From: Anaerolineales bacterium
GTDB taxonomy: Bacteria; Chloroflexota; Anaerolineae; Anaerolineales; Villigracilaceae
NCBI GenBank assembly: GCA_034435215.1
Contig: DAOTXM010000492.1
Location: 12,611-76,610, forward strand
Length of the DNA stretch: 64,000 nucleotides
Direction of reading: 5' to 3'
Positions within the stretch are counted from its first letter, which is position 1, and every line of letters starts with the position of its first letter. The position numbers and the translations under genes are program-made. Below are positions 9,217-59,534 of this stretch, piece after piece. The notes below the pieces were generated by a model. That model ran no database searches and was not told where the DNA came from. It saw only the letters and a program-made list of their open reading frames with translations.

Positions 9217-10636
9217 TGTAAAGTCTCATAAATTCGTACCTTAACAGTCTCATAAAATCATACCCCCGCCAAAGGGATCAGGAGTGGCAACTGGAAGGCT
9301 TGCGGAGCAGGCAGTTCTGCAACGGTGTAGCCCAGAATGTCTTCTTTGCTCAATCCACGGGTCGGGAGAGACTGGATTATTTCTCCTTGCTGGGTGCGGA
9401 AGCAAAAGCAGCGCCTTTCTGGCTCAAATTAAGCCGAAATGACTTGTCCGGCATATTTGGCACCCACCGTGTAATAGTGGCCTAATACTGAGACACGTCC
9501 GTTTTTGCTGACTTGCCGTATGGCAATATACCGGCTAACGAAGCGATAGGCGCGTTCCAGGTCGAAGAGCAGCCATTCTTGGCTTGGATCAAAGGGGCGT
9601 CCGCTGCTACGGGCGAAAGGGTAAACCTGCAAAGGCGGCTTACCATGGCAGTGGGCAGCTTGGGACGGATAAGTCTGGTTATAAAACGCGCGCGTTTCAT
9701 CGAGCGTATGTTGCAGGCTCGCCAGGGCTGAGAAGGTCTGGCCTTTGCAAGCCAGGTCAAAGATGGTGCGGTGCTCACGCTCCACTGCGCCCTGGTCGGT
9801 TGGACGTGCCGGACGACTGGTGATGTGTTGAATGCCCAATCCCGCCAGCCAGATGGTAAAGAGCGATGGGTAGTTTTCGTCACTTGACCCGACATACACC
9901 GTTTCATGGTCAGTCTGGATCTCTTCCGGCAACCCCCACTCGCAAAAGGCTTCTCGCAAGGTTGCTTGGACCTCCTGCAAAGTGATTTTTCGCCAACGTT
10001 TTGTGGTGGTGGTGAGAAAGGCTTTCGAGCCAATCATCAACCCAAGCGGGTCACGCACATTGAGCAGGTTGACCTTTTCGCGGGACATCACTGACAACCC
10101 TTCCTGGGCATCCATCTGCCACCGCTGATGAGGTCGAATGACAACGGGCGGCGGCTTTTCCGGGTACGTGCGCTTGTTGCGCTCCTGAACCGCTTGCGGA
10201 CAGCGTTCTTTGAAAAGCACTGCCAGGCGCGAGCAACTGGGAAGTTCTTCGAGCGGCTTCCCCAACTTCTTGGCCAGTTTCAGCCGAACCGTCACCGCTC
10301 CCCAGCCCGGATGCTCTTGTTTCATCTTCACGGCTTCTTCCACAATCTCCGCCGCATAGCTGCTAAGCGTTCCGCTGCAAGGGCGACCGCGAGGCTTTGC
10401 TGCCTGATTGTCGCGCTGGCGTCGCCAGTGCTTGCGCACTGTGTAAATCGAGCAATGCATTTCTGCTGCAATCGCTTTCAGCATCCAACCTTCTTGTTTG
10501 TACTGCACGATTCTTTCTTGTTCCGCCACTGTCAATGGGCGCCAAGGAATTGCCATACCTCCTCCAATTTCGACTTTTGCATGGAGTAGAGGTACGATTT
10601 TATGAGATTGTAAAGGTACGAACTAGAGATTCTACA
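9217..10636 (-). mobile_element. IS481-like insertion sequence (single rve/DDE transposase)
   Basis: Imperfect terminal inverted repeats of about 47 bp: TGTAAAGTCTCATAAATTCGTACCTTAACAGTCTCATAAAATCATACC at 9217 versus the reverse complement of 10590..10636, TGTAGAATCTCTAGTTCGTACCTTTACAATCTCATAAAATCGTACC. Flanked by the direct repeat ACCTG (9212..9216 and 10637..10641). Confidence 0.9.
9429..10556 (-). CDS. IS transposase (N-terminal HTH plus integrase-core rve domain)
   Basis: 375 aa with an N-terminal HTH (CSIYTVRKHWRRQR) and DDE core signatures WQMDAQEG, IQTDHETVY and PTDQGAVEREHRTIFD. Confidence 0.93.
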   Translation of the reverse strand: MAIPWRPLTVAEQERIVQYKQEGWMLKAIAAEMHCSIYTVRKHWRRQRDNQAAKPRGRPCSGTLSSYAAEIVEEAVKMKQEHPGWGAVTVRLKLAKKLGKPLEELPSCSRLAVLFKERCPQAVQERNKRTYPEKPPPVVIRPHQRWQMDAQEGLSVMSREKVNLLNVRDPLGLMIGSKAFLTTTTKRWRKITLQEVQATLREAFCEWGLPEEIQTDHETVYVGSSDENYPSLFTIWLAGLGIQHITSRPARPTDQGAVEREHRTIFDLACKGQTFSALASLQHTLDETRAFYNQTYPSQAAHCHGKPPLQVYPFARSSGRPFDPSQEWLLFDLERAYRFVSRYIAIRQVSKNGRVSVLGHYYTVGAKYAGQVISA

Positions 10637-10668: not shown

Positions 10669-11277
10669 TCACGCAAACGGTTGCTTACAAACATTACAAT
10701 AGATTTCCATTCTGTCAAGAGCGGATTTTTTTATCTGAATTGTATGTGGAGGCAGGCAGTCACATCTAGCAGTGACACATTCGTCTTGACTAGATCCGCT
10801 TTTCATTAGGTTTTCTACATAGAGCACAGCCTGGATAAGCCCACTATTCTGACGAATTGATGCGGCAAGAGGCTCTATGAGTGTTTGCCATTTTTGAATT
10901 GCTTCAGGGGCTAATATCCATCGAATGCAATTCGTTTTTGCGTCTCGGATCGCGCATAGGCCAAAGGAACGGGCTGGTTTGATATACCAGGGAGAAAACC
11001 GACTGATATATTCAATCACATCCATAAGCATATTGGCCAGAACAATTTCAGCAGCCTTCTCAGGCGAGGTGATCTCGGCTCCGTCAAACAGGTGCTGAAT
11101 ATCCGGAAGCTCGCCGCCTGAATCATAGTAATCACATAAGGTTCGCCAAGTATGTTCCAGGGTTTCATCCAATTCTTCGATTGGATCAATATAAAGTTTT
11201 TCAAAATGTTTCGGTACCATGATAGCCCTACCCGAAGTACTATCACCGGCAAGACGGTTGAATTTGCAAATCGGCAC
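10669..11277 (-). CDS. Hypothetical protein with Cys-rich C-terminus
   Basis: 202-aa ORF (GTG at 11277, alternative ATG at 11220) directly downstream of the hdrCB fusion on the same strand. Low GC. C-terminal CVTARCDC...YCNVCKQ suggests a small metal-binding module. No family recognised. Confidence 0.5.
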   Translation of the reverse strand: MPICKFNRLAGDSTSGRAIMVPKHFEKLYIDPIEELDETLEHTWRTLCDYYDSGGELPDIQHLFDGAEITSPEKAAEIVLANMLMDVIEYISRFSPWYIKPARSFGLCAIRDAKTNCIRWILAPEAIQKWQTLIEPLAASIRQNSGLIQAVLYVENLMKSGSSQDECVTARCDCLPPHTIQIKKSALDRMEIYCNVCKQPFA

Positions 11278-11294: not shown

Positions 11295-12710
11295 TTAGAT
11301 GAACGCCTTATTTTTCAAAAGTCTGCGAGGATCAATCAAATTTTTGTGAAACGCAGTAGCCTTATCTGACAATCCAAAAGCTAGCGCCATCAATTGGGAT
11401 AAATACAATATCGGCATAGGTTCATCCATTTTCATCTGCGTCTGGCGCGCATCCAGATTGGCATGGCAAAGCGGACAAGCCACCGCGATTATGTCTGCAC
11501 CCGATGCCCGAGCCTGGTTGATTAAACGGCTGCTTAGGGTCAGGACAATATCGGGACGAGATAGCGAGTGCGAGGCTCCGCAGCAACAGGTTTTATAGGA
11601 CCAATCGATCGCATTTGCGCCCAACGCCGATACAATCTCGTCCATGTTGGTTGGATTCTCGACATGCTTTGCGCCAGTCACATCAGCCGGGCGTGTCAAC
11701 AAACAGCCGTAATAGCAAACTACGTTCAAGCCAACCAACCTCTTTACCACCTTCTCTTCCACTTCGCGTAAGCTGACATGTTTAAGAATGGTCTCCATCA
11801 ATGTGTTGATCTCAACCGTATCTTGATACCGGTAACCAATCTTTTCAGCTACCTGCTGAACATGCTGTGGATCATGACGTAATCTATATTGGGCAGTTTT
11901 GTGACGGTTGAAACATGCCGCACAAGGCATGACAACCTCTTTAAAACCACTTTGCTCTATCAGGGACAAGTTCTCTAAAGGCAAGCGTAGAGCTGCATCA
12001 GGGTCAATACGATGTGCGGCGCTGCTTCCACAGCATACCCATCCGCGCGGCTCGATCAGGTCGATCTCCAAAACCTTGAAAATCGCCTGCGTAGAAGAGT
12101 TGAACTCAACAGCAGTTGAATGCAAAGAACAACCCGGATAGTAAGCCACTGAATTAGCTGCGCCGAGAAGGGGTTTCACTTTGCGTGGTGGGAGAGTCGG
12201 GCTGGGTAAAAAACGCAATTTGTTTTTTTGGAACATCTTGATGCCCAAATCCATATCGGCCATGATGTTCATTGTCCGAAGTTTCATTTCAGCAAGTAAG
12301 CCCAACTCATAAGCCCGTCCCCACATCCTGACCTCACGCATAAAGGCCCTGTTGAAATAATCCACTTCAGGGACTTGAGGCCGAATCCCCTGCTGGGATG
12401 CGAGGCGCGTCAAATAGTCCATAATGGAAGCGATGTCTAACCCTTGTGGACAACGCGTGGTACAAGTCTGGCAGGCCGCGCATAGCCAAGGAGTTTGCGC
12501 GTGCAAGGCAATATCTTCCTGACCCAGTTGGAGTGCGCGCATGATTTGGTTGGGTTGCCAATCAAAGAACTCGCTTACCGGACATCCACTGGTGCATTTG
12601 ACGCACTGGTAACAAAGATAGACGTTCTCACCTAGCTCTTCCTGGATTTGTCGCGCCAGATTGGTTTTGATCGTGATCGGTCGGTCGGGTATTTTCTGAT
12701 TCACGCTCAT
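11295..12710 (-). CDS. hdrCB: Heterodisulfide reductase HdrC/HdrB fusion (2x[4Fe-4S] plus two CCG domains)
   Basis: N-terminal CYQCVKCTSGCP / CAACQTCTTRCP ferredoxin motifs (HdrC). C-terminal CCG-type motifs (YYPGCSLH, VCCGSS, YYGCLLTRP, CCCGAS, ACPLCHANL) typical of HdrB. Confidence 0.9.
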   Translation of the reverse strand: MSVNQKIPDRPITIKTNLARQIQEELGENVYLCYQCVKCTSGCPVSEFFDWQPNQIMRALQLGQEDIALHAQTPWLCAACQTCTTRCPQGLDIASIMDYLTRLASQQGIRPQVPEVDYFNRAFMREVRMWGRAYELGLLAEMKLRTMNIMADMDLGIKMFQKNKLRFLPSPTLPPRKVKPLLGAANSVAYYPGCSLHSTAVEFNSSTQAIFKVLEIDLIEPRGWVCCGSSAAHRIDPDAALRLPLENLSLIEQSGFKEVVMPCAACFNRHKTAQYRLRHDPQHVQQVAEKIGYRYQDTVEINTLMETILKHVSLREVEEKVVKRLVGLNVVCYYGCLLTRPADVTGAKHVENPTNMDEIVSALGANAIDWSYKTCCCGASHSLSRPDIVLTLSSRLINQARASGADIIAVACPLCHANLDARQTQMKMDEPMPILYLSQLMALAFGLSDKATAFHKNLIDPRRLLKNKAFI

Positions 12711-12746
12711 CGCTTCATCTCCTGAACATCAGCTTACTTCCGTTAC

Positions 12747-13766
12747 CTAAGCTTCCTTTACAACCGGACGCGGGTACAGCCCCGCCCCTTCCACAATCGG
12801 CTTGACTGCTTCCTCCCACTCGATTGCCATGATGTGCACTCCTGCGACGCCCCTGATTGCACGTAACTGCAGGATGAGTTCGATGCAGATACGAATGCCT
12901 TCCTCCTGCCAGGCCTGTGACCGGGCTTTTTTATCCTCTTTGGTCAGGTCCTCTTTCTTGATGCCAGCCCAGGGTGCGCCAGCTTTTTCCATCCTCGCTA
13001 TTAGCTCATCCGGGACCAGAATCCCAGGTACGCTGTCCTTCATGTAACGCGCCATGCCGGGGCTTTTCAGGGGACCAACCCCTGCCAGGATGTATGTTTG
13101 TTCATGCAGCCCCAGCTCACGGACTTTGTGCATGAAACGCTCAAAGGCCACCACGTCATAAACCAACTGGGTCTGTATGAAATTGGCGCCAGCTTTGACC
13201 TTTTTTGCCAACCGATATGGGCGGAAATCGATTGGATCGGCAAAAGGCGCGGCCGCTGCGCCAACAAAAAAGCGTGGCTCCTGTCCTTTCATCGGGTCGC
13301 CGCACTGAAAGACATGCTCGTCTCGCATGGTTGCGACCATCTGGAGTAATTGTACCGAGTCGAGATCGAATACATTTTTCGCAGTGGGATGGTTGCCAAA
13401 GGTCTGGTGGTCGCCGCTCAGGCAGAGCAGGTTGCGCATTCCGAGGGCGTATGCGCCGAGCAAATCGCTTTGTATTGCCAGACGATTGCGATCCCGGCAG
13501 GTCATTTGGACAACGGGTTCCAGGCCTTCTTGCACGACAATCGCGCCGGAACCAATGCTAGACATGCGCACGATGGCTGTCTGGTTATCGGTGATGTTGA
13601 CCGCATCACAATAGCCTCTCAGCAACGCCGCCTTTTCCCGGATGACATGTTCGTCGGCGCTTTGCGGTGGACCAAGCTCAGCGGTGACAGCAAAATGTCC
13701 GGCCTTGAGTACGCGTTCCAGGTTGGAGCCAACCAGGTATCCATTTGGGCTGATATTCGTCGTCAT
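12747..13766 (-). CDS. metF: 5,10-methylenetetrahydrofolate reductase
   Basis: 339 aa with FAVTAELGPP, VNITDNQ, LCLSGDH and FFVGAAAAPF, characteristic MTHFR TIM-barrel motifs. Confidence 0.93.
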   Translation of the reverse strand: MTTNISPNGYLVGSNLERVLKAGHFAVTAELGPPQSADEHVIREKAALLRGYCDAVNITDNQTAIVRMSSIGSGAIVVQEGLEPVVQMTCRDRNRLAIQSDLLGAYALGMRNLLCLSGDHQTFGNHPTAKNVFDLDSVQLLQMVATMRDEHVFQCGDPMKGQEPRFFVGAAAAPFADPIDFRPYRLAKKVKAGANFIQTQLVYDVVAFERFMHKVRELGLHEQTYILAGVGPLKSPGMARYMKDSVPGILVPDELIARMEKAGAPWAGIKKEDLTKEDKKARSQAWQEEGIRICIELILQLRAIRGVAGVHIMAIEWEEAVKPIVEGAGLYPRPVVKEA

Positions 13767-13769
13767 CTT

Positions 13770-14453
13770 TCACTCCTCCTCGGCAGCCAGGCGCAAATCT
13801 TCCCGCACGATCTTGCGCGGCCCGCCATCACGCGACTTCTGCCAGTTCTTCGGCGGTCGGATTGCATAAATATTTTCGAGTCTGCCCATGCTGGATAAAC
13901 GGTCATAAATGAGCTGCCAGGCACAGGGAATGTTCGGGTCGATTTCACAGTGTCCGGCCTCGGAGCCACCACAGGGTCCGTTCAGAAGCGATTTGGAGCA
14001 GCGTGCAATCGGGCAGATTCCTCCTGTCAGATCCAGAATGCAATCCCCGCAAGCCGCGCAGCGTTCCGACCAGACGCCCTGTTCGGTTGGTAAGCCCAGA
14101 AACGTAGTATTCAACCCCGGCACGACCCAGGTATCCGGGAAATGTTCGGCAATCGCCTGGACGCCGATCCCGCAGCCCAGGGAGAGGACAATGTCCGCAT
14201 CTTTCACCTGCTCGGCGGCTTGATCCAGGTACTCCCATTCACACTGGCGCTGAACGGTGGCATGTGTCACCTGTTTACCGTTCCCATCGAGTTTGGTTGC
14301 CATGCGCAAAGAGGCAGCCAGGATCGCGGCTTCACGTTCACCACCGGCAAAACAAACTGTGACACAGGTGCCACAACCCAGAACCAACACTTTTTCCGCA
14401 CTCCCCAGCAGGGATTTGATTTCCGCAAGTGGTTTTTGTTCTGCAATGATCAT
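13770..14453 (-). CDS. metV: MetV (MTHFR C-terminal-domain-like zinc/FeS protein)
   Basis: 227 aa with LGCGTCVTVC, CAACGDCILDLTGGICPIARCSKSLLNGPCGGS. Immediately upstream of metF, as in acetogen metVF units. Confidence 0.88.
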   Translation of the reverse strand: MIIAEQKPLAEIKSLLGSAEKVLVLGCGTCVTVCFAGGEREAAILAASLRMATKLDGNGKQVTHATVQRQCEWEYLDQAAEQVKDADIVLSLGCGIGVQAIAEHFPDTWVVPGLNTTFLGLPTEQGVWSERCAACGDCILDLTGGICPIARCSKSLLNGPCGGSEAGHCEIDPNIPCAWQLIYDRLSSMGRLENIYAIRPPKNWQKSRDGGPRKIVREDLRLAAEEE

Positions 14454-14962
14454 TTGGACACCTCCGGTTTGGAGCTCAACGTTTGATGCTCCATCGAATT
14501 TTTTTCTTCTGATGATCCGCTATCCTGTAGCTCAGATCTGCGCAACGGGTTCAATCCGAGCTTTTCGATCTTCGAAGTCATCTCCTGCGCGGTCGAAACA
14601 AACTCGCCCGCCATCGCTGACGACATATTGAACATCTGCACACGCTCAGGCTCCAGGCCAATCTGCTCCAACAGTTCCTGCACGCGCTTCACTCGGCGGG
14701 TTGCGTTCAAATTACCTTCCAGGTAATGACAGTCGCCCGGCAGTCAACCTGCCACCATGACGCCATCCACGCCATTCTCAAAAGCCTGCAAAGCCATCAA
14801 AACATCCAGTTTGCCAGCACACGGCAGGAGGATGATTTTCACATTGGGAGGATATTGCATCCGTAAGCCTCCGGCCAGGTCGGCTGCCGCATAGGCGCAG
14901 TGCTCACAACAAAATGCCAGGATTTGAACTTGCTCACCAGGCACAGGTGGCGTATGGCTCAT
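14450..14962 (-). CDS. mvhD: MvhD-like [2Fe-2S] subunit with in-frame TGA (predicted selenocysteine)
   Basis: Track ORFs 14744..14962 and 14450..14710 are in the same frame, separated by one TGA (complement of 14744..14746). Read-through gives ...GVDGVMVAG-U-LPGDCHYLEGNLNATRRVKRVQELL. The U aligns with the Cys of the paralog at 19714..20211 (...GVYEVA-C-PIGNCHHVRGN...). Confidence 0.8.
14711..14727 (-). promoter_or_regulatory. Candidate bacterial SECIS hairpin
   Basis: mRNA AUUACCU-GGA-AGGUAAU (7-bp stem, G-rich loop) starts 16 nt 3' of the UGA. Confidence 0.55.
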
Positions 14963-14974
14963 TCCACAAACTCC

Positions 14975-17900
14975 TTATCGAACTGCCTCGACAGGCACAA
15001 AATCACTCGCCGGACACACTAGCGCGCCAATCTTGGCGGCCATCTGGACATCGGTGTAATGAAGTAACTGAATGGCGCGCGCCGGGCATTCCGCCGCGCA
15101 TACGCCGCAACCCTGGCAGACAGAAGGCTCAATGAAGGCCGCGCCCAGGATATTGCCTACACCAGGCTGGTTTGGCTGGATTTGCGGCACTTGGAAAGGG
15201 CAAATGCGGACACAGGTGAGGCAGCCAGTGCAAAGCTGTTGATCGACCACCGCCACCTGCCCACCCGCGGCCTGCGTGCTGCGACTGAGCACGCGCGCCG
15301 CCCGAGCCGCGGCCGCCTGCGCCTGGATCATGCTCTCATCCAGCAGTTTGGGGTAATGGGCAAAACCAGCCATGAAGATGCCATCCGTAGCAAAGTCAAC
15401 CGGGCGGAGCTTGACATGCGCCTCAAGGAAAAATCCATTCGCGTCGACAGGCACTTTGAACATGGCGGATAGATCGTACACATCCTTGTTTGGCACAATT
15501 GGCATGGATAGCGCCAGCAGGTCGGGATGCAGGATCAAGTCGCGATGCAGTACAGGTTCCCAAACCTTGACACTGATCACTGGCAATTGACCACTGATCA
15601 CTGATGACTGATCGCTGTCCACTGTCACTTCCGGCTTCCTGTCGAAGTCATAGCGGACGAAGGTTACGCCCATAGCGCGCGCCTGGGTGTAGAGCCGCTC
15701 TTTGAAACCATAGGCGCGAATATCGCGATACAGGATGGTGACCTGCATCCCCGGATTCAATTCTTTCAACCGAATGGCGTTCTTCAGCGCCACGGTGCAG
15801 CAGATACGGCTGCAGAACTGTTCGGCGGGGCCAACACACAGGATCATGACTACGGAATTGAGTTCCTGCACACTGGTTTCATCCGTAAGATGCGCTTCAA
15901 GTTCTTGCTGAGTGATAATTCGTGGGTTGGTTCCGTAGCCGTATTCCGGCTGGCGATATTCTTGAGCGCCGGTTGCCAGAATAGTTGCGCCATGCACGAT
16001 CTCAAGTTGCTCACCTGTACCGTTTCTAATCACGCTGGTAAAGTTTCCTTTGAAACCATGCGTCTCGGTCACCCGGCTGTTCAAATGGACGGTAATTTTG
16101 GGGTGGGAATTGATCTGCTCAACCAGTTGTCGAAGCACTTTTTGAGGCTCTCTGCCGTTCAACGGGACATACACATTCCGTAAATTCCCGCCCAACTTGC
16201 TTTCCTTCTCCACCAAGTGAACCGGGAAACCCTGATCGGCTAGCGAGAGCGCAGCGGTCATCCCGGCAGCGCCGCCACCAACCACCAGCGCAACCTGTCG
16301 CACAGGGATTTCGATAGTGTAAATCGGATTTAACAACGCCGCGCGCGAGACAGCCATCCGCACCAGGTCTTTCGCTTTAGCAGTGGCAGCTTCCCGATCC
16401 GTGGAATGAACCCAGGAGCACTGGTTGCGGATGTTCGCCATCTCGAACAGGTAAGGATTCAGTCCCGCCGTTCGCAGACTGTCCCGGAATAACGGTTCAT
16501 GCGTGTGAGGCGTGCAACTTGCCACTACTACGCGGTTGAGCTGATGTTCATTCACCTGTTCGATGATGTGACGGATACTGTCCTGGGAGCAGGTGTATAG
16601 ATTGGATTCAGCATGGACAACATAAGGCAAGGTGGCAGCGTACTCGCTAACAACCGGCACATCCAGGTATCCGGCGATGTTCGAGCCACAATGACAGACG
16701 AACACGCCAATGCGGGGCGGCTCGCCATTGACGTCCCGTTCAGGCGGGAATTCAGGGGTGGTAGTCAGCGTAAAACGGGACCCACTCAAATGTCCGGCCG
16801 CGGCGGCCGCTGCTCCGCTGGCTTCGACAATCGATTCGGGGATGTCCTTGGGCTCGCAGAACGGTCCAACAGCGTAGATTCCCAGGCGGCTGGTTTCCAC
16901 AGGATTGAACTGCGCGGTACGGCAAAAACCATGTTCGTCCAGTTCAACGCCCAAGCGCTGGCCCAGGGCGCGCACATCCGGTGAGATTTCCATACCAACC
17001 GAAAGGACGACCATATCAAAGCGCTTGAAGAATGCTTTTCCATTCTCATCCTGATAGCGCAGGAGCAAATCGCGACTCTCAGGGTCTTCGTGCAAGGCGC
17101 TGATTCGGCAGCGGGTATAGGTGATACCATATCGCTGGCGCGCCCGCTCGTAATACTCCAGGTAGCCTTTGGAGAAAGCGCGCATGTCCATCATGAAAAC
17201 CTGGATATCCAGGTTCGGATGATGTTCCTTGGCCATGATAGCTTCCTTGGTAGCATACATACAGCAGACAGCAGAACAATAATCATGGCTCTGATCACGC
17301 GAACCGATGCACTGCAAGAACGCGATGCGCTTGGGAGTGCTGTCATCCGATGGACGCTGAATATGTCCCATTGTCGGGCCGGAAGCCGATAGCAAGCGTT
17401 CGAATTGCAGCGAAGTCACCACGTTTGGATAGCGTCCAAAGCCATATTCCTGCGAGAGTTCAGCGCGATAGATTTCGTATCCGGGCGCTAAAATGACGGC
17501 TCCCACATCCAGGCTTTGTTCGCGAGCAGGCATATCATGATCGATTGCATTCACCCCACAGGCAAAGACGCAACTCATACATTCAGAACAAATGCCGCAC
17601 GCCAGGCAGCGAGCTGCTTCAGCTTGCGCGCTTTCATCGTCGTAGCCACCCTCGACTTCGGCAAAATTCGAGATGCGTTCTTCGACCGTCAGTTCAGGCA
17701 TGGGTACGCGCGGCTGGAGCTTGATCTCACCGCGGGCGATGCGATCTTCGATTTCCTGTTGGGAGAGTTTGACCACCGGAAGTTCAGGCTTGGGCGGCGG
17801 TTCGAGTGCAGCGCCTCGCAGATAGCGAAGGATGGATTTAGCCGCCTTGTGACCGCTATCCACGGCCTCGATGACGAAAGCCGTACCGGAAACACTATCG

Positions 17901-19546
17901 CCCGCTGCATAAACACCCGGACGGGTGGCAGCGAAGGTATTGGGATTGATGGCAATGGTTTTCGTCGCCGTCAGGCCTACACCGGCATCTTCGGGGATAA
18001 AGGCCAAACCTGCGCGCTGGCCAACCGAAAAGATGACCGTATCACACTCGATGATGTGGTTGGAGTCCGGGACTTTCTCGACCTCCAGGCGGCCAACCTC
18101 GTCGAAGCGGAACGAGCTGACCTGCATGCACTCCACACCCCGCGCTCGACCGTTCCCGTTGCCATGAATCTGTTCAAAGGAACGACTGTTGTAGATTGTG
18201 ATCCCCTCTTCTTGCGCGGCTTCGATCTCCCATGCGTGGGCGGGCATTTCTTCCCGACCTTCCAGGCAGGCCATAGAAACCTGGCAGCCCAGGCGCACGG
18301 CGGAACGGGCTACGTCAATGGCGACGTTGCCACCGCCTAGTACCAGCACGCGCGGGCCAAAGGGTTTTCCATCCGGTGTGCCAATAGAATCATTTTCATC
18401 TCGTTCGTAGCGACCCAAACGCATGTCTCGCAGGAAGTGGGTGTTGATCAACACGCCATCCAAGTTGGCGCCAGGGATTGGCAGGCGCACACCCTCATGC
18501 GCACCAACGGCGATCAACACCGCCGAAAAGCCTTCTTCAAAGAGGTCGTCCAGATTGGATACGGGCGAATTCAAGCGCAATTCCACGCCGAGATCGATGA
18601 TGTCCTGGACTTCGCGCTCGATAATCTCGGCCGGCAGACGGAACTCGGGCACCCCCAGGCGCAGCATCCCACCTGCGACCGGCATCGCCTCGAAAATAGT
18701 GACAGGATACCCATCCCGGATGATATCCTGCGCAGCAGTCAATCCACATGGCCCTGCGCCAATGATGGCTACCCTTTTATCGGGATATTTGATTTCCACA
18801 GGTTTGACCGGCTGGCGCGGCTCGGCGTAGACCTTATCGGTCACGAAGCGTTTCAGGGCGTGGATATTGATCGGTTCATCGACCAAGCCACGGTTGCAAG
18901 CTATCTCGCAGCGATGATTGCAGATGCGTCCGCAAATGCCGGGAAAGGGGTTGTCCATTTTGATGACGCGCAAAGCATCTGCCCAGCGTCCTTCCCTGAT
19001 CAGGGCAATGTACCCCTGGGCGCGCTGTCCTGCCGGACAGGCATCGCGGCAGGGGGCAATGCCGCGCTTCTGGATCGCAAACGCATTTGGTGTGGCTTGC
19101 GGATACTGCTTATAGATAGCATGCCGTTTGGATAATCCCTCATTGAAAAGATCCGGCACAATAACCGGACATACATCAATGCAGTCCCCACAGGCAACAC
19201 ATTTATCTGCGATGACATATCGAGGATTGTGTAGCATGCGCGCGGTAAAATTCCCTACCTGCCCCTGCACATCCAGCACCTCGGTATTGGCCATGATTTC
19301 GATGTTAGGATGTCTGGCTACTTCAACCAGTTTTGGGGAAATTGTGCACATGGCACAATCATTGGTTGGGAAAGTCTTATCGAGCTGGGCCATCTTACCT
19401 CCGATGGCCGACTGCTTTTCCACCAGATAAACCTTAAAGCCCTGATCGGCCAGATCCAGCGCGGCCTGCATCCCCGCAATGCCCCCTCCCACCACCATCA
19501 CTGCTCCAGTGGACTGATTTTCAGGATCATTTACGACCTTGGCCAT
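14975..19546 (-). CDS. hdrL: HdrL-like giant flavoprotein: HdrA with an inserted GltD/NfnB-like NAD(P)H module, an MvhD-like domain and a second HdrA-like unit
   Basis: 1523 aa. HdrA N-terminus (VVGGGIAGMQAALDLA, FPTNDCAMCTISPK). GltD-like segment (GICGRICNHRCEIAC, RVAIIGAGPCGLTAA, VLGGGNVAIDVAR, YAAGD). HdrA core (LQCIGSRD..YCSAVCCMYATKEA). MvhD-like insert (GVFVCHCGSNIAGY). Second FAD unit (VVGGGAAGMTAAL) and terminal 2x[4Fe-4S] motifs. Confidence 0.88.
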   Translation of the reverse strand: MAKVVNDPENQSTGAVMVVGGGIAGMQAALDLADQGFKVYLVEKQSAIGGKMAQLDKTFPTNDCAMCTISPKLVEVARHPNIEIMANTEVLDVQGQVGNFTARMLHNPRYVIADKCVACGDCIDVCPVIVPDLFNEGLSKRHAIYKQYPQATPNAFAIQKRGIAPCRDACPAGQRAQGYIALIREGRWADALRVIKMDNPFPGICGRICNHRCEIACNRGLVDEPINIHALKRFVTDKVYAEPRQPVKPVEIKYPDKRVAIIGAGPCGLTAAQDIIRDGYPVTIFEAMPVAGGMLRLGVPEFRLPAEIIEREVQDIIDLGVELRLNSPVSNLDDLFEEGFSAVLIAVGAHEGVRLPIPGANLDGVLINTHFLRDMRLGRYERDENDSIGTPDGKPFGPRVLVLGGGNVAIDVARSAVRLGCQVSMACLEGREEMPAHAWEIEAAQEEGITIYNSRSFEQIHGNGNGRARGVECMQVSSFRFDEVGRLEVEKVPDSNHIIECDTVIFSVGQRAGLAFIPEDAGVGLTATKTIAINPNTFAATRPGVYAAGDSVSGTAFVIEAVDSGHKAAKSILRYLRGAALEPPPKPELPVVKLSQQEIEDRIARGEIKLQPRVPMPELTVEERISNFAEVEGGYDDESAQAEAARCLACGICSECMSCVFACGVNAIDHDMPAREQSLDVGAVILAPGYEIYRAELSQEYGFGRYPNVVTSLQFERLLSASGPTMGHIQRPSDDSTPKRIAFLQCIGSRDQSHDYCSAVCCMYATKEAIMAKEHHPNLDIQVFMMDMRAFSKGYLEYYERARQRYGITYTRCRISALHEDPESRDLLLRYQDENGKAFFKRFDMVVLSVGMEISPDVRALGQRLGVELDEHGFCRTAQFNPVETSRLGIYAVGPFCEPKDIPESIVEASGAAAAAAGHLSGSRFTLTTTPEFPPERDVNGEPPRIGVFVCHCGSNIAGYLDVPVVSEYAATLPYVVHAESNLYTCSQDSIRHIIEQVNEHQLNRVVVASCTPHTHEPLFRDSLRTAGLNPYLFEMANIRNQCSWVHSTDREAATAKAKDLVRMAVSRAALLNPIYTIEIPVRQVALVVGGGAAGMTAALSLADQGFPVHLVEKESKLGGNLRNVYVPLNGREPQKVLRQLVEQINSHPKITVHLNSRVTETHGFKGNFTSVIRNGTGEQLEIVHGATILATGAQEYRQPEYGYGTNPRIITQQELEAHLTDETSVQELNSVVMILCVGPAEQFCSRICCTVALKNAIRLKELNPGMQVTILYRDIRAYGFKERLYTQARAMGVTFVRYDFDRKPEVTVDSDQSSVISGQLPVISVKVWEPVLHRDLILHPDLLALSMPIVPNKDVYDLSAMFKVPVDANGFFLEAHVKLRPVDFATDGIFMAGFAHYPKLLDESMIQAQAAAARAARVLSRSTQAAGGQVAVVDQQLCTGCLTCVRICPFQVPQIQPNQPGVGNILGAAFIEPSVCQGCGVCAAECPARAIQLLHYTDVQMAAKIGALVCPASDFVPVEAVR

Positions 19547-19713: not shown

Positions 19714-20211
19714 TTATTTGCGTCTGCCGCGAAATTTGTTCTCCTCTTCTTCGATTTCTTTTTCAGGGACCTTAGCCGCCTCCTTCCAGACCTTTAACGG
19801 GTTCGGCCCTAATTGGCGGATTCGTTCCGTCATGGTTTGGGCGGCCATCGCAAAGGCTTGTCCCTGGCTACCGGACATAAAGAACATATCCAGACGCTCT
19901 TTACCCAAACCAATTTCATCTAATAATTTCTGTGCCCGTTGAATTCTGGCCAGTCCGCGCTCATTGCCGCGTACATGATGGCAATTTCCAATCGGGCAGG
20001 CAACCTCGTAGACGCCGTCCGCCCCTTGTTCGAAAGCCTCTAAAATGTAGCGGATGTCCGTTTTCCCGGTGCAGGGTAGACGGATAAATTTAACGTTGGC
20101 TGGATATTGAATGTACAGTGCGCCAGCCGTGTCAGCCGCCATATATCCGCAGTATACGCAGTAGAAGGCGGTGATCTCAGGTTCAAAGGGTGGAGCTGGA
20201 TTATCCTTCAT
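19714..20211 (-). CDS. mvhD: MvhD-like [2Fe-2S] subunit (Cys form)
   Basis: 165 aa with ITAFYCVYCGYMAADTAG, LPCTGK and ACPIGNCHH. ATGA overlap with the upstream hdrA. Confidence 0.9.
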   Translation of the reverse strand: MKDNPAPPFEPEITAFYCVYCGYMAADTAGALYIQYPANVKFIRLPCTGKTDIRYILEAFEQGADGVYEVACPIGNCHHVRGNERGLARIQRAQKLLDEIGLGKERLDMFFMSGSQGQAFAMAAQTMTERIRQLGPNPLKVWKEAAKVPEKEIEEEENKFRGRRK

Positions 20212-23200
20212 CGCAATATCTCATACCCTTTTCCTGGCAACCAGCTTCCCAATCCGGCAACGTTGCGGAGCATGATCTGGCTGTCGGTGAAATTGACAAG
20301 CTGTATCGCATTGGCAGGGCATTCGCCGGTACAGGTTCCACATCCTTGGCACTGGGCCGAATCAATATAAGCTGCTCCACCCAGTTTTCCGACCCCATAT
20401 CGACCTTCTTCCTGAATGACCTGTGGAATGCCAAAAGGACAGGTGCGAGTGCAAGTCAGGCAACCGACACACTTTTCAGGGTCGACCTGGGCAACTACCC
20501 CGCCCAGGTAAAGCGATTCCCAGGCCAACAGGGTTATCGCACGTGCAGAGGCGGCTAAAGCGTGACTGATACTCTCTTCGATGAACTTAGGATAGTGCGC
20601 CATGCCTGCCAGGAAGATACCCTCACGCATGAAATCCATTGGGCGCAGTTTCAACTGCGCCTCGCTGAAGAACCCTTCACTGGACAGGGGAACGCGCAAC
20701 ATTTGGGCAAGCTCTCTTGTGCCTTCAGATGGTGCAATGGACATACTCAGGGGGATAATATCCGCTGGAAGCAACAGCCAACGATCCAGTGACACATCCA
20801 GCACTTTTACTTCCAGATGGTCCTGAACCCAATTGATTTGGGGAGGATTCTCATCGGTATAACGAACAAAGATCACCCCACGTTGACGAGCTTCTGTATA
20901 GTGCTCTTCGCGAAAACCATACGTAACGATGTTTTTATACAGCACGCTAACCTGACAGTTTGGATTCATCAACTTGATACGAATGGCATTTTTCAATGTG
21001 GCAGTACAACATACTCGCGAGCAATAGTCTGCTTCACCCGGGGGATGCACACATTGGATCATCACCACATTCTTTAAGGCCGCAATTTGCTCAGGATGAT
21101 GAATAACTGTCTCCTCCAACTTTCTCTGCGTAATCACATTGGGGAGATCCAGCCAAGGATGTTTCTGGGTCTCCTGGCCACCGGTCGCAACGATGGTCAC
21201 ACCGTGATCGAAGGCTGTTCTCACAACAGTCCCATCCTGCTGCCGAGTGGTAATCTCAGTCTGGAAATAACCCACATGGCCGGTATGCTTTACCACCTCG
21301 GTACGCGTAAAGACATTGATCCGTTGATGCGAACGGACGCGATTGACCAGATCGCGCAACAGGCGTTGCGGGTTGAAACCTGCAGCAACGTAGTAAATAT
21401 TTAGAAGGTTCCCCCCTAACATTTCAGATTGTTCTACCAAGTTGACGCTGAAACCACTATCTGCAATGGCTAGTGCAGCAGTCAGTCCTGCTACACCTCC
21501 TCCAATGACCAATGCATTTGACCTGCAACGATGCTTCTTTTTGTACACCGGCTGTGCCAAAGCAACTCGGCCCACCGCGATACGGATCGATTCCAGGGCT
21601 TTACGCTGGGCCAAGTCTCGCTGCCACTGGTGGACTCTCCCACATTGCTCGCGCAAATTGACCAATTCTAATAGATAAGGATTCAAACCTGCATGTCTAA
21701 CAGTACGTTGGAAGAGTGATTCATGTGTTCGACTGCTACACGCTGCAATGACGATCCGGTTGATGTTTTCAGTTTGAATCTTTCCTCGGATGTACTCCAG
21801 AGATTCAGGGACACAGGCGAACTCAAGCACCTCGCTTGATACTACACCATCCCATTTGGCCACCTGATTTGCCAGGTCCTTGGTATCCAAGTTTTCACCC
21901 AGGGTATCTTTACAAGAACAGACAAAAACACCCGTGCGCAGAGGCTGATCAGAAACATCCTTTTCGGGGGGTAAACCGTCCACTGATAGGAAAGGCCATT
22001 GACGGGTATAAACATTTGAACACAAACGGTCATTGAGCAATCGCATGACCTCTGCAGCGGCACCGCTGGCGTCAATAACAGTTTCAACAATTTCCTTCGG
22101 TGAAGAAAATGCTCCGCAGACAAATACTCCTGGATGGGTAGTTTGCAAAGGGGTGAATTTTTCCGTCCGGCAGAATCCATATTCGTTCAGTTCGATGTTG
22201 AAACTCTTAGAAAGCTGGGCAGCCGAACTTGGAGGAAGCACTCCGGTTGCCAAAACAACCATTCCATATCGTTGTTGTTTAAGCGGCCCATTGGGATCGG
22301 CATAATTTACGATAACATCATGACTATCCGGGTCTTCTTGAAGTGAAGAGACTCGACAGCGACTGTAATGAATGTTGTACTGGTTCCGTGCCCTTGAAAA
22401 ATATTTGTGGTACTCTTTGTTGAACGCTCGTTCATCCATGATGAAAATCTGGCATTCAATTTCTTCTCCCAAACGCTGCTTGGCCAGGATCGCTTCTTTG
22501 GTGGCATACATGCAACAAATCGATGAGCAATAGGAGTATTCCGGGCTGCGTGAACCTATGCATTGCAACCAGGCGATCGATCGAGGACGTTGACCATCTG
22601 AAGGGCGCACCAAAATTCCTTCCGTCGGACCCGAACGACTGGCAAGCCGTTCGTATTGCATGGCATGTAGTACGTTCGGATATCGCCCATAACCATATTC
22701 TTCCAACTTGGATGGGTCAAAACTCTGAAAGCCTACAGCAAGGACAATAGCGCCAACCTCAACCGAGAGCAATCGCGCTTGTTGATCCAAGTCAATAGCC
22801 CCGGTTGGACATATTTCCGCGCATTTTTTACAATCAGGCTGGCATTGATTACGGTCGATCACGTAAGCATCTGGCATAGCCCGCGCAGCGACTTTATAAG
22901 CCGCCTTGCGAATACTTAATCCCTGTTGGTATTCATCTGCAAGCTCAACCGGACAAACTTGGGAGCAATACCCACAGTTTATACAGCGCGCCGGATCAAC
23001 GAAACGTGGTTCTTGACGCAGTGAAACAGTAAAGTCTCCAGCCTGGCCTTCCGCATCAATAACCAGCGTATTGGTTAAGATCTCAATATTAGGATGCAAG
23101 TTGTGTTGAATATAAGCCGGGGAGATAGAGGGACGGGTACATCCGTAGCCGTGGTCTGATGTGCCTCTACAAAGAACGCAATCATGTTGGGGGAACATAA

Positions 23201-23366
23201 AACCGAGCTGTGCGACTCGCCCACCCAAACAGGGGGTTTGCTCGACCAAATACACTTTCAGGCCAGCATCCGCAAGGTCAAGGGCAGCACGCATTCCTCC
23301 AATGCCGCCACCTACGACCAAAACCATCGGTCTGGCTTGAATGTTTGGAGAGTTTGGAGCATACAT
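20208..23366 (-). CDS. hdrA: Tandem HdrA-like flavoprotein (two HdrA units joined by an MvhD-like domain)
   Basis: 1052 aa with VVGGGIGGMRAALDLA, CINCGYCSQVCP, LQCIGSRS..YCSSICCMYATKEA, GVFVCSCKDTLGE, a second VIGGGVAGLTAALA, and terminal CVGCLTCTRTCP / CQGCGTCTGECP. Confidence 0.88.
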   Translation of the reverse strand: MYAPNSPNIQARPMVLVVGGGIGGMRAALDLADAGLKVYLVEQTPCLGGRVAQLGFMFPQHDCVLCRGTSDHGYGCTRPSISPAYIQHNLHPNIEILTNTLVIDAEGQAGDFTVSLRQEPRFVDPARCINCGYCSQVCPVELADEYQQGLSIRKAAYKVAARAMPDAYVIDRNQCQPDCKKCAEICPTGAIDLDQQARLLSVEVGAIVLAVGFQSFDPSKLEEYGYGRYPNVLHAMQYERLASRSGPTEGILVRPSDGQRPRSIAWLQCIGSRSPEYSYCSSICCMYATKEAILAKQRLGEEIECQIFIMDERAFNKEYHKYFSRARNQYNIHYSRCRVSSLQEDPDSHDVIVNYADPNGPLKQQRYGMVVLATGVLPPSSAAQLSKSFNIELNEYGFCRTEKFTPLQTTHPGVFVCGAFSSPKEIVETVIDASGAAAEVMRLLNDRLCSNVYTRQWPFLSVDGLPPEKDVSDQPLRTGVFVCSCKDTLGENLDTKDLANQVAKWDGVVSSEVLEFACVPESLEYIRGKIQTENINRIVIAACSSRTHESLFQRTVRHAGLNPYLLELVNLREQCGRVHQWQRDLAQRKALESIRIAVGRVALAQPVYKKKHRCRSNALVIGGGVAGLTAALAIADSGFSVNLVEQSEMLGGNLLNIYYVAAGFNPQRLLRDLVNRVRSHQRINVFTRTEVVKHTGHVGYFQTEITTRQQDGTVVRTAFDHGVTIVATGGQETQKHPWLDLPNVITQRKLEETVIHHPEQIAALKNVVMIQCVHPPGEADYCSRVCCTATLKNAIRIKLMNPNCQVSVLYKNIVTYGFREEHYTEARQRGVIFVRYTDENPPQINWVQDHLEVKVLDVSLDRWLLLPADIIPLSMSIAPSEGTRELAQMLRVPLSSEGFFSEAQLKLRPMDFMREGIFLAGMAHYPKFIEESISHALAASARAITLLAWESLYLGGVVAQVDPEKCVGCLTCTRTCPFGIPQVIQEEGRYGVGKLGGAAYIDSAQCQGCGTCTGECPANAIQLVNFTDSQIMLRNVAGLGSWLPGKGYEILR

Positions 23367-27863: not shown

Positions 27864-28000
27864 GTCCTCTGGACAAGACTTTTTCTGCCTGTTGTAGTAT
27901 AAATGGTTTGTGACGCCTGTCACGCAAAGACTCATTTGCTGCCCAAACCAACGGCTATCGAAACGCTTTCGTAAGCATAATCACCTTGAATGGAGGTTGG

Positions 28001-29395: not shown

Positions 29396-29407
29396 AGGAG
29401 GCTTGCC

Positions 29408-57962: not shown

Positions 57963-58433
57963 TTAGGCGACTGTTTCCGCTTCCGGGAATTCGTATCCCA
58001 GGGCGCGTAATTTCTTCTTGGCGTCGATCAGGGACTTTTGACCAAAACCTGTAATTGCCAGCACAGCCTCTTCGCCCTCGGCGAGTTTATTCATGAACTG
58101 GCCTACTTTTTTGATGCCTGCCTTGGCCAGCGCCTCGGTTGGGCGTTTGCCCAATTCGAGATCGGCCACCGGGCGCTCGGGGGAAACTTTCTCGGTCTCC
58201 CGCGCTTTCTTTTCCGCTACATAATCCTGGCGAGCTTGAAGTTTTTTGTAGAAGCGATCGACCTGGCCTTCGATGTCTACGATACGGGCCTGTTCCCCAG
58301 AAAAGAACGGGTGACAATTGGAACAGATTTCGACTCGGATTTCTTTCCTGGTCGAACCGGTTTTCCAGGTATTCCCACAGGCGCAGGTCACGGTGGCATC
58401 CACATAGAATGTGGGATGGATATCTTTCTTCAT
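57963..58433 (-). CDS. rpmE: Ribosomal protein L31 fused to an RNA polymerase alpha-CTD-like helix-hairpin-helix domain
   Basis: Residues 1-66, [32 protein letters not shown], make a complete zinc-type L31. Residues about 85-150, [45 protein letters not shown], follow the alpha-CTD pattern (DLEL.VR....L...I..VGDL....L....N.G.KSL.EI...L...G). Confidence 0.85.
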
Positions 58434-58445
58434 ACCAGTATCCTT

Positions 58446-58703: not shown

Positions 58704-58715
58704 TTCTACCTCGCA

Positions 58716-59261: not shown

Positions 59262-59387
59262 TTTTTCTCCTGGCATTTCACTTCGCCGCACGAACCGCGG
59301 GAGGTTTCTCCTTCGCCGATGTGCGGGGAAGCCGGGTTACAAACGACCGCCCCGGCTGGTCTCGCTGCCAGGGCAGAAGCGGACGGT

Positions 59388-59416: not shown

Positions 59417-59534
59417 CGCTTAGACAGACTGAATCCATTAATCCAACTGTAAATATCCAATTGACAAACAGCTTAGGCTCATATATGCTGTTATTATCAC
59501 ACTAACAGTGTTTTTCAAGATAACGGGAGTATGG

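What the first reader, a model, noticed from the sequence alone, without database searches (positions are those of the whole stretch)
14450..14962. In-frame TGA in mvhD aligns with a conserved Cys: probable selenoprotein with a SECIS-like hairpin
ORFs 14744..14962 and 14450..14710 share a frame and are interrupted only by TGA (complement of 14744..14746). Read-through yields a full-length 170-aa MvhD: ...GVDGVMVAG-U-LPGDCHYLEGNLNATRRVKRVQELLEQIGLEPERVQMF. The Cys-containing paralog 5 kb away reads ...GADGVYEVA-C-PIGNCHHVRGNERGLARIQRAQKLLDEIGLGKERLDMF. The TGA therefore replaces exactly the first Cys of the C-x4-C-H cluster motif. Sixteen nt 3' of the UGA is the hairpin AUUACCU-GGA-AGGUAAU (14711..14727), and the UGA itself sits in the loop of GGCAG-GUUGA-CUGCC (14739..14753). 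Sec-containing MvhD/VhuD and HdrA homologues are known from methanococci and deltaproteobacterial sulfate reducers. A Sec/Cys paralog pair in a single operon is a neat natural experiment.
Basis: partly seen in the sequence, partly recalled or inferred. Interest (0 to 1): 0.7.

Follow-up and report, generated by a model that had tools for sequence, protein, structure and literature searches.

The report
Selenocysteine-coding mvhD with conserved SECIS hairpin
The in-frame TGA in this small iron-sulfur electron-carrier gene (mvhD) almost certainly encodes selenocysteine, directed by a short RNA hairpin 16 bases downstream; this is a new example of an already known kind of selenoprotein, here in a Chloroflexota-type bacterium.

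Summary
On the minus strand one frame runs from ATG 14962 to TGA 14450, interrupted only by TGA 14746..14744. The 170-aa read-through matches the whole MvhD/FlpD domain, and the TGA falls on a nearly invariant Cys.

The interpretation also holds. A degenerate DNA pattern for VAG-TGA-[LM][PE]G[DNE]CH found at least 115 species genomes with the same in-frame TGA in an intact mvhD. Most are Chloroflexota/Anaerolineae and Desulfobacterales; a few are Acidobacteriota.

In all 116 Sec forms, the six codons forming hairpin 14727..14711 are frozen as CAT TAC CTG GAA GGT AAT or CAT TTC CTG GAA GGA AAT. Every TAC→TTC change is paired with GGT→GGA, which preserves the base pair. Neighbouring wobble sites vary freely. 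In 111 Cys-form homologues the same codons are unconstrained.

The hairpin meets the loop, stem and spacing rules of the bacterial SECIS model.

Sec-containing MvhD/VhuD is an established selenoprotein family, and this column is also Sec in Methanococcus VhuD. This is a new member, not a new kind.

Untested: selA/B/C/D in the rest of the genome. None of them lies in this window.

The parts
14450..14962 (-). mvhD (170 codons including UGA-Sec at codon 73): the [2Fe-2S] adaptor subunit of an HdrA-type electron-bifurcating complex
   Evidence: Searches give the frame. PF02662, E = 2.3e-49, full profile; alignment with 28 full-length homologues. AAGGAG lies at 14976..14971, 8 nt before the ATG. 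The stop overlaps the metV start (ATGA at 14453..14450).
14744..14746 (-). UGA codon read as selenocysteine (residue 73)
   Evidence: It aligns with a nearly invariant Cys. The same codon is TGA in at least 115 other species genomes with coding sequence in frame on both sides. The same column is 'X' (Sec) in VhuD of PDB 9sfi chain K.
14711..14727 (-). Bacterial SECIS hairpin. 5' arm AUUACCU 14727..14721, loop GGA 14720..14718, 3' arm AGGUAAU 14717..14711. It is embedded in codons His79-Tyr80-Leu81-Glu82-Gly83-Asn84.
   Evidence: six codons frozen in 116 of 116 Sec forms, free in 111 Cys forms; 98.9% of cells paired, against 28-70% when the 3' partners are slid. RNAalifold predicts exactly this helix and nothing else.
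14728..14743 (-). 16-nt spacer between the UGA and the SECIS stem (23 nt from UGA to apical loop)
   Evidence: Wobble positions in the spacer vary freely among orthologues, so it is constrained in length only.
14739..14753 (-). Present here but not conserved, so not part of the element.
   Evidence: -7.7 kcal/mol in the window; 5/5 pairs in only 12 of 116 Sec forms.
14975..19546 (-). HdrL-type fusion (HdrA-like plus GltD/NAD(P)H-oxidoreductase-like domains, 1523 aa) directly upstream of mvhD-Sec
   Evidence: Pyr_redox_2, Fer4_20, FAD_oxidored, Fer4; conserved upstream of Sec-mvhD in related loci.
13770..14453 (-). metV (small subunit of methylene-THF reductase), translationally coupled to mvhD
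   Evidence: PF12225. MetV lies downstream of Sec-mvhD in at least 83 of 115 loci.
12747..13766 (-). metF (methylenetetrahydrofolate reductase)
   Evidence: PF02219.
11295..12710 (-). Fused HdrC/HdrB-like subunit (Fer4 dicluster plus two CCG domains)
   Evidence: PF02754, PF13534.
19714..20211 (-). Second MvhD (Cys form, different subfamily), downstream of the 1052-aa HdrA-like gene
   Evidence: PF02662, E = 9e-40; 49% identity; the hairpin codons vary in this subfamily.
20208..23366 (-). HdrA-like flavoprotein/ferredoxin fusion (1052 aa), first gene of the cluster

Best explanation
This is one gene, mvhD, encoding a 170-residue selenoprotein. During translation, the hairpin AUUACCU-GGA-AGGUAAU forms in the mRNA 16 nt downstream of the UGA, so its G-rich apical loop lies 23 nt from the codon. 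As in other bacterial selenoprotein genes, the hairpin would bind SelB-GTP-Sec-tRNA(Sec), and the UGA would be decoded as selenocysteine instead of stop. That step is inferred, not shown. Translation then continues to the real stop at 14450, which overlaps the metV start codon (ATGA). Expression of the downstream metV-metF-hdrBC genes is therefore probably coupled to read-through. The protein is the [2Fe-2S] adaptor subunit that passes single electrons to or from the flavin of an HdrA-type subunit. Here it belongs to an HdrA/HdrL-MvhD-MetVF-HdrBC cluster of the Moorella type, a presumed electron-bifurcating methylene-tetrahydrofolate reductase of the Wood-Ljungdahl pathway. Sec73 replaces the first Cys of the C-x4-C-H motif. 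By elimination it is most likely one of the four ligands of the [2Fe-2S] cluster; this too is an inference. Shown here: gene integrity, conservation of the UGA, and RNA-level selection on the hairpin. Inferred: SelB dependence, actual Se incorporation, ligand role, and function of the enzyme complex.
For: (1) The read-through product matches the full PF02662 profile at E = 2e-49, and the UGA aligns with a nearly invariant Cys. About 115 of these are intact mvhD genes with roughly 70 in-frame codons on each side of the TGA. In tblastn, 117 HSPs cross the '*' at column 73. Hosts listed are mostly Chloroflexota/Anaerolineae and Desulfobacterales, plus some Acidobacteriota and one Leptospirales. 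(3) In 116 of 116 Sec forms, codons 79-84 are CAT-TAC-CTG/CAG/CGG-GAN-GGT-AAT or CAT-TTC-CTG-GAN-GGA-AAT. His is always CAT, Asn always AAT, and the third base of Tyr/Phe is always C. The Gly third base always complements the Tyr/Phe second base (82 TAC/GGT, 34 TTC/GGA). Adjacent codons use all synonymous options, for example Cys78 TGT 58: TGC 58 and Gly76 with four codons. (4) In the control of 111 Cys-form homologues with the same protein motif, usage is CAT 57: CAC 54 and AAT 55: AAC 55. All four Gly codons occur, the amino acids at 81-82 vary, and 7/7 pairs form in only 2 of 111. Fisher p is 1e-21 to 1e-45, not corrected for relatedness. (5) The closing pair changes U-A to G-C (CGG GAC) and to A-U (CAG GAT). 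These swaps alter the amino acid on both sides to keep the pair. (6) RNAalifold predicts only this helix. (7) The hairpin fits the published bSECIS model: 7-bp stem, 3-nt loop starting GG, 23 nt from the UGA (for the criteria). (8) The column is Sec ('X') in M. maripaludis VhuD, PDB 9sfi_K. MvhD/VhuD is listed as an experimentally verified selenoprotein family (PMC13188914), and four Sec-mvhD genes are reported in Desulfobacterium autotrophicum (PMC2702500). (9) An identical sequence, TGA included, is in a second assembly. (10) Sec-containing formate dehydrogenases are reported in marine Anaerolineae that carry the same hdr-mvhD-metVF cluster (PMC5736913).
Against: No selA, selB, selD or tRNA-Sec lies in the 64-kb window, and the rest of the genome could not be reached. 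The hairpin alone is weak (-4.5 to -5.1 kcal/mol). The region folds no better than shuffled sequence. The model's MFE criterion of -7.5 kcal/mol or lower is met only when non-conserved flanking pairs are included (-8.3 and -9.2). The A-U to U-A swap follows the Chloroflexota versus non-Chloroflexota split, so it may be a single evolutionary event. The Fisher tests treat related sequences as independent. No Rfam family matched. There is no experimental evidence for this organism.
Confidence: 0.93

Rival explanations
1. Split gene or pseudogene. A nonsense mutation (TGC/TGT to TGA) inactivated mvhD, or divided it into two separately translated polypeptides of 72 and about 86-97 residues.
For: Gene callers treat it this way. 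In GCA_964541345.1 the 72-aa fragment is annotated as its own gene, followed by another ORF. The ORF listing reports two ORFs. No Sec machinery lies in the window.
Against: The same TGA is kept in at least 115 species from several phyla, with both halves under protein-level conservation. There is no conserved start codon after the TGA: CTG in 96 of 116, ATG in 12 of 116. The downstream hairpin is under strict RNA-level selection only when the codon is TGA. The C-terminal half alone would lack Cys19 and Cys48.
Confidence: 0.02
2. A sequencing or assembly error turned a Cys codon into TGA in this window.
For: A single-base change (TGC/TGT to TGA) would be enough, and the closest full-length database homologues (up to 79% identity) all carry Cys.
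Against: A second public assembly has the identical sequence, although it may derive from the same reads. More decisively, the window carries the exact Sec-specific codon signature CAT TAC CTG GAA GGT AAT. A full 7/7 hairpin occurs in all-but-6 of the Sec forms and in only 2 of 111 Cys forms. An erroneous TGA would not come with a matching SECIS.
Confidence: 0.01
3. The UGA is recoded, but not (or not only) as Sec. Examples are Cys delivered through the same SelB/SECIS route under selenium limitation, or near-cognate read-through. The hairpin would then act as a general read-through or pausing signal.
For: Nothing here measures which residue is inserted. The hairpin is weak and short.
Against: The position is a Cys/Sec column, and it is Sec in the solved VhuD structure. 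The hairpin matches the SelB-type bSECIS geometry, including the G-G at the start of the loop, which is invariant or nearly invariant among orthologues. No other gene in the window needs TGA read-through.
Confidence: 0.04

Closest known systems
[quoted passage not shown]
   Same: Same Pfam domain (PF02662), E = 1.5e-36 over residues 13-141. Sec ('X' in the deposited sequence) occupies the same column as U73 here. Both have the same role as the [2Fe-2S] adaptor bound to HdrA (PMC13518236).
   Different: VhuD has a second Sec at the column of our Cys22, where the window protein keeps Cys. Archaeal SECIS elements lie in the 3' UTR, whereas here the SECIS is inside the coding sequence. The partner there is a [NiFeSe] hydrogenase or Fdh; here no hydrogenase genes are adjacent and the cluster contains metVF.
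Sec-containing MvhD1/2/3/5 next to HdrA/HdrL in Desulfobacterium autotrophicum HRM2 and other Desulfobacterales
   Same: Bacterial, with mvhD directly downstream of an hdrA or hdrL (Hdr/glutamate-synthase fusion) gene, and Sec-containing (PMC2702500). Desulfobacteraceae genomes in my scan carry the same TGA column and the same hairpin, with the UUC/GGA variant.
   Different: The host phylum differs: the window's nearest relatives are Anaerolineae/Chloroflexota. I did not retrieve the HRM2 sequences themselves, so identity of the Sec column in those four genes is inferred from related Desulfobacteraceae MAGs.
[quoted passage not shown]
   Same: Same gene content: hdrA-type, mvhD, metV, metF, and hdrB/C fused as described for Chloroflexi (PMC5736913).
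   Different: That paper, in the passages retrieved, does not report Sec in MvhD. The window has two HdrA-like genes (1052 aa and a 1523-aa HdrL-type fusion) and two MvhD genes.
Bacterial SECIS consensus model (bSECISearch; criteria quoted in PMC13188914)
   Same: Stem 4-16 bp (here 7). Loop 3-9 nt (here 3). G in the first two loop positions (here GG). 16-37 nt from the UGA to the loop (here 23).
   Different: The conserved helix alone is weaker than the model's -7.5 kcal/mol cut-off (-4.5 to -5.1). No conserved lower stem is present.
BamF of class II benzoyl-CoA reductase (Geobacter metallireducens), an MvhD-like selenoprotein
   Same: An MvhD-homologous [2Fe-2S] adaptor with Sec, bound to an HdrA-like bifurcating subunit (bioRxiv 10.64898/2026.04.10.717634).
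   Different: BamF's Sec19 is the N-terminal, non-ligand residue near the cluster, which by numbering and description is probably the column of our Cys22, not column 73. BamF is more than 100 residues longer.

Membership tests
MvhD/VhuD/FlpD selenoprotein family (PF02662) | Full-length match to the FlpD/MvhD domain | tested here: met
   E = 2.3e-49, residues 14-136 on profile positions 1-123 of 123. E = 1e-33 to 1e-36 against solved MvhD/VhuD chains.
MvhD/VhuD/FlpD selenoprotein family (PF02662) | Conserved Cys set of the [2Fe-2S] site (columns 19, 48, 73, 78) plus the extra Cys at column 22 | tested here: met
   C19, C22, C48 and C78 are invariant. Column 73 is Cys in all 29 other sequences and UGA here.
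MvhD/VhuD/FlpD selenoprotein family (PF02662) | In-frame UGA at a column that is Cys in homologues and Sec in a verified member | tested here: met
   In PDB 9sfi_K (M. maripaludis VhuD) the column is 'X'. That X stands for Sec is inferred from the family's two known Sec residues (PMC13188914).
MvhD/VhuD/FlpD selenoprotein family (PF02662) | Genomic association with an HdrA-type flavoprotein | tested here: met
   the HdrL-type gene ends 13 nt upstream. HdrA/HdrL lies upstream in most of the 115 related loci.
MvhD/VhuD/FlpD selenoprotein family (PF02662) | Selenium actually incorporated at the UGA | not testable with these tools
   Needs 75Se labelling or mass spectrometry.
Bacterial SECIS element (consensus model) | 4-16 bp upper stem with a 3-9 nt apical loop, immediately downstream of the UGA inside the ORF | tested here: met
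   7 bp plus a 3-nt loop at 14727..14711.
Bacterial SECIS element (consensus model) | At least one G in the first two apical-loop positions (G[G|U] pattern) | tested here: met
   The loop is GGA. The first G is invariant and the second is conserved in at least 90% of 38 diverse orthologues.
Bacterial SECIS element (consensus model) | 16-37 nt between the UGA and the apical loop | tested here: met
   23 nt. No indels occur in this stretch in the 116 orthologues.
Bacterial SECIS element (consensus model) | MFE of -7.5 kcal/mol or lower | tested here: inconclusive
   The hairpin alone is -4.5 to -5.1. UGA plus 44-47 nt gives -8.3 and -9.2, but with extra pairs that are not conserved.
Bacterial SECIS element (consensus model) | Structure conserved with compensatory change, and only when the codon is UGA | tested here: met
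   7/7 pairs in 110 of 116 Sec forms against 2 of 111 Cys forms. Swaps seen are A-U/U-A, and U-A/G-C/A-U at the closing pair.
Bacterial SECIS element (consensus model) | Binding by SelB | not testable with these tools
   No SelB sequence from this genome is available. Needs a binding or reporter assay.
Sec-decoding trait of the host (selA, selB, selC, selD) | Presence of the four genes in the genome | not testable with these tools
   They are absent from the 64-kb window. The only other assembly of this organism found (GCA_964541345.1) cannot be queried as a whole. The trait is documented in Chloroflexi/Anaerolineae (PMC1794560, PMC5736913).
HdrABC-MvhD-MetVF type methylene-THF reductase | Co-linear hdrA-type, mvhD, metV, metF and hdrB/C genes | tested here: met
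HdrABC-MvhD-MetVF type methylene-THF reductase | Electron-bifurcating methylene-THF reductase activity | not testable with these tools
   A biochemical property.

The most novel reading that the evidence does not exclude
Sec73 is a direct selenolate ligand of the MvhD [2Fe-2S] cluster, not a redox-active Cys/Sec pair as in most selenoproteins. This Se-ligated cluster is then the standard form of the MetVF-Hdr methylene-THF reductase in a large share of anaerobic Chloroflexota. That would make their Wood-Ljungdahl carbon metabolism selenium-dependent. A recent review states that Sec-MvhD occurs exclusively in sulfate reducers and methanogens. The ligand assignment is by elimination. Column 22 is described as the extra non-ligand Cys (Cys16 of M. 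marburgensis MvhD, PMC13580544). Column 18 is missing in VhuD and in the window's own paralogue. That leaves columns 19, 48, 73 and 78 as the four ligands.
Probability: 0.55. Interest if true: 0.45.

Novelty: new member of a known kind. Interest (0 to 1): 0.3.

Why it matters
In practice, standard gene callers split this gene into two fragments, as happened in GCA_964541345.1. In at least 115 species genomes the electron-carrier subunit of a central carbon-fixation enzyme is therefore probably mis-annotated as truncated or missing. Biologically, selenium use extends to the Hdr-MvhD-MetVF module of Anaerolineae-type Chloroflexota, which are abundant in sediments and the subsurface. The data also give a very clean natural example of an RNA signal overriding codon choice and even amino-acid choice: residues 81-82 are fixed as Leu-Glu only in Sec forms. 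The 18-nt signature TGA-N16-ATT[AT]CCTGGAAGG[TA]AAT could serve as a simple annotation rule. None of this changes the current picture of Sec decoding.

Tried and rejected
Folding energy as evidence: the hairpin region is no more stable than dinucleotide shuffles, so thermodynamics neither supports nor refutes the SECIS.

Rfam scan of the window: no hits.

tRNA-Sec: ARAGORN found no tRNA in the window. Across the 119 genome loci it reported only one tRNA line and no tRNA-Sec match.

Other selenoprotein candidates in the window: I listed every in-frame TGA flanked by at least 60 open codons on both sides. All others are ordinary stops followed by the next gene in the same frame, or shadow ORFs. 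For example, 58038..58607/58654..59505 has no Pfam hit and overlaps the L31 gene on the other strand.

Sec in the neighbouring HdrA/HdrL genes of related loci: none was detected by tblastn stop-in-alignment screening.

Identifying the source genome: an exact-protein look-up of the 1523-aa HdrL found nothing. MetV and the 72-aa fragment led only to two short contigs of one fragmented MAG. The source genome was not among the first 119 rows of the genome scan.

Direct statement of the MvhD cluster ligands: not found in the open-access papers read, so the ligand role rests on elimination.

Full report
**Observation.** On the minus strand, an ORF starts at ATG 14962, preceded by AAGGAG at 14976..14971. 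It runs in one frame to TGA 14452..14450 and is interrupted only by TGA 14746..14744. With Cys placed at the TGA, the 170-residue product matches Pfam PF02662 (FlpD/MvhD) over the whole profile, E = 2.3e-49. A protein search returned 4,221 homologues. The best are full-length 'hydrogenase iron-sulfur subunit / MvhD' proteins from Chloroflexi/Anaerolineae MAGs, up to 79% identical. In an alignment of 28 of them plus the window's own paralogue (19714..20211, 49% identical), the TGA falls on the nearly invariant Cys of VAG-C-LPGDCH.

**Context.** The gene lies in a minus-strand cluster with the following members.
- An HdrA-like gene of 1052 aa at 20208..23366.
- A Cys-type MvhD at 19714..20211.
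- A 1523-aa HdrA/GltD-like fusion of the 'HdrL' type at 14975..19546.
- The UGA-containing mvhD at 14450..14962.
- metV at 13770..14453.
- metF at 12747..13766.
- A fused HdrC/B-like CCG protein at 11295..12710.

The mvhD stop overlaps the metV start (ATGA). This is the Moorella-type hdr-mvhD-metVF arrangement already described for marine Anaerolineae (PMC5736913). The rest of the window carries V-type ATPase, cytochrome bd, cydDC, FtsH, PPDK and other housekeeping genes. It contains no selA, selB, selD or tRNA genes.

**Is the TGA conserved?** I scanned one genome per species (185,579 genomes) for the exact degenerate pattern GTN GCN GGN TGA NTN SMN GGN RAN TGY CAY. By my arithmetic (about 39 bits of specification, 1.2e12 positions), about two chance matches are expected. 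In about 115 of them the TGA lies inside an intact mvhD, with roughly 70 in-frame codons on each side and good alignment to the window protein. Four are chance hits. tblastn gives 117 alignments that cross a '*' at column 73. The listed hosts are mostly Chloroflexota (Anaerolineae, Anaerolineales, Promineifilaceae, Aggregatilineales, Ardenticatenales). There are also many Desulfobacteraceae/Desulfosarcina, a few Acidobacteriota and one Leptospirales. In at least 83 of 115 loci metV(-metF) follows, and HdrA/HdrL-like genes precede in most. A stop codon kept at one Cys column across phyla, with both halves of the protein conserved, is not a pseudogene.

**Is the hairpin real?** Energy alone gives no signal. 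The region folds no better than shuffles (z = -0.2 and -0.5), and the 17-nt hairpin is only -4.5 kcal/mol. Comparison with other genomes is decisive.

- In all 116 distinct Sec-form sequences, the six codons that make the hairpin read CAT TAC CTG GAA GGT AAT or CAT TTC CTG GAA GGA AAT, with limited variation only at the closing pair and loop.
- His is CAT 116:0 and Asn is AAT 116:0. The Tyr/Phe third base is C 116:0.
- The Gly third base is U with UAC (82 cases) and A with UUC (34 cases), with no exceptions. That is an A-U to U-A compensatory swap.
- The flanking codons use synonymous codons freely: Cys78 is TGT 58: TGC 58, and Gly76 uses all four codons.
- The closing pair also changes U-A to G-C (CGG…GAC) and to A-U (CAG…GAT). 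These swaps alter both amino acids to keep the pair.

As a control I scanned metagenomes with the same pattern but TGY in place of TGA. In 111 Cys-form homologues usage is CAT 57: CAC 54 and AAT 55: AAC 55. All four Gly codons occur, residues 81-82 are variable, and only 2 of 111 form all seven pairs, against 110 of 116 Sec forms. Fisher p values are 1e-21 to 1e-45; they ignore relatedness. On 38 diverse Sec forms, 98.9% of cells pair, against 28-70% when the 3' partners are slid. RNAalifold predicts exactly this helix and nothing else.

The hairpin satisfies the published bacterial SECIS model on stem length (7 bp), loop length (3 nt), G-G at the start of the loop, and spacing from the UGA (23 nt). 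The energy criterion is met only with non-conserved flanking pairs (criteria from PMC13188914).

I do not count it as part of the element.

One caveat applies. In the loci whose titles were listed, the UAC/GGU form is seen in Chloroflexota and the UUC/GGA form in the other phyla. That swap may therefore be a single event. The closing-pair swaps are additional events.

**Artefact checks.** Two contigs of another public assembly (GCA_964541345.1) are 100% identical to window 12355..16172, TGA included. The annotation there splits the gene into a 72-aa product and a downstream ORF. The window also carries the full Sec-specific codon signature, which an erroneous TGA would not bring with it.

**What the residue does.** Solved MvhD/VhuD structures match at E = 1e-32 to 1e-36. 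In M. maripaludis VhuD (9sfi_K) the deposited sequence has 'X' at the columns of our Cys22 and our U73. The family is known to carry two Sec residues (PMC13188914).

[quoted passage not shown] It names His68 and Asp71 as residues contacting a ligand held by the HdrA Cys pair (PMC13580544). With the offset of 6 taken from the alignment coordinates, these are our C22, L74 and D77. The Asp match supports the numbering.

Column 18 is absent in VhuD and in the window's own paralogue. Columns 19, 48, 73 and 78 therefore remain as the four cluster ligands. I infer, at roughly 55-70% confidence, that Sec73 is a selenolate ligand of the [2Fe-2S] cluster.

**Comparison with the known.** Sec-containing MvhD/VhuD is an experimentally verified selenoprotein family. 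Four Sec-mvhD genes next to hdrA/hdrL are reported in Desulfobacterium autotrophicum, whose genome also encodes selA, selB, selC and selD. BamF of Geobacter is another Sec-MvhD relative, with Sec at a different position. Sec use in Chloroflexi, and Sec-containing formate dehydrogenases in Anaerolineae with this very gene cluster, are documented.

What I did not find in the papers read is any mention of Sec in the MvhD of Chloroflexota. The 2026 review says these hydrogenase-family selenoproteins occur exclusively in sulfate reducers and methanogens. The present scan shows them to be common in Anaerolineae-type genomes and tied to metVF rather than to a hydrogenase. That is an extension of range, not a new mechanism.

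**Verdict.** The window contains a bona fide selenoprotein gene with a coding-region SECIS. It is a new member of a known kind. Still open are whether the Sec machinery is present elsewhere in this genome, whether Se is actually inserted, and whether Sec73 ligates the cluster.

Noticed in passing
L044, L052, L064 (Acidobacteriota MAG contigs JAFGIY010000157.1, CAZTHE010000036.1, CAYTYP010000031.1): These bacterial mvhD genes carry two in-frame TGAs, at the columns of Cys22 and Cys73. This is the same two-Sec pattern as archaeal VhuD. After the first TGA there is a different candidate hairpin (GGACC-UGGCA-GGUUC) about 14-16 nt downstream.
   Followed up: partly
L153 and L173 (metagenome contigs Ga0209691_1000656, OGCI01002548.1): The Cys-form homologues closest to the window protein look like decaying SECIS fossils. 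L153 reads CAT TTT TTG GAA GGA AAT and still forms 7/7 pairs, two of them G·U. L173 reads CAC TTT TTA GAG GGG AAC and forms 5/7. This suggests recent Sec-to-Cys conversions.
   Followed up: partly
L040 (CAVPPE010000002.1, uncultured Chloroflexia MAG), 923-952 and 7900-7929: Two separate Sec-type mvhD copies lie within 8 kb of one genome. One has the CGG…GAC (G-C) variant of the hairpin's closing pair.
   Followed up: no
window 57963..58433 (-): A 156-aa ORF combines a ribosomal protein L31 domain (residues 1-65, E = 4e-27) with a C-terminal domain matching the RNA polymerase alpha-subunit CTD (residues 79-143, E = 2e-7). This is an unusual fusion.
   Followed up: no
window 9429..10556 (-) and 10669..11277 (-): An rve-family integrase/transposase gene and a 202-aa ORF with no family match sit directly downstream of the hdr-mvhD-metVF-hdrBC cluster. 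The mobile element marks the end of the operon.
   Followed up: no
window 25421..26782 (+) and 27986..30445 (+): There are two cydA-like genes (453 and 469 aa). Only the second is followed by cydB, and then by a fused cydDC of 1206 aa. They are separated by a 390-aa minus-strand ORF with no family match, in an organism whose neighbouring operon implies anaerobic Wood-Ljungdahl metabolism.
   Followed up: no
GCA_964541345.1 contig CAZISC010000815.1 (locus L241, 1211-1429): The public annotation calls the N-terminal 72 codons of this selenoprotein as a separate FlpD gene and the remainder as another ORF. The same mis-annotation is probably present in the other 115 or more genomes found here.
   Followed up: partly
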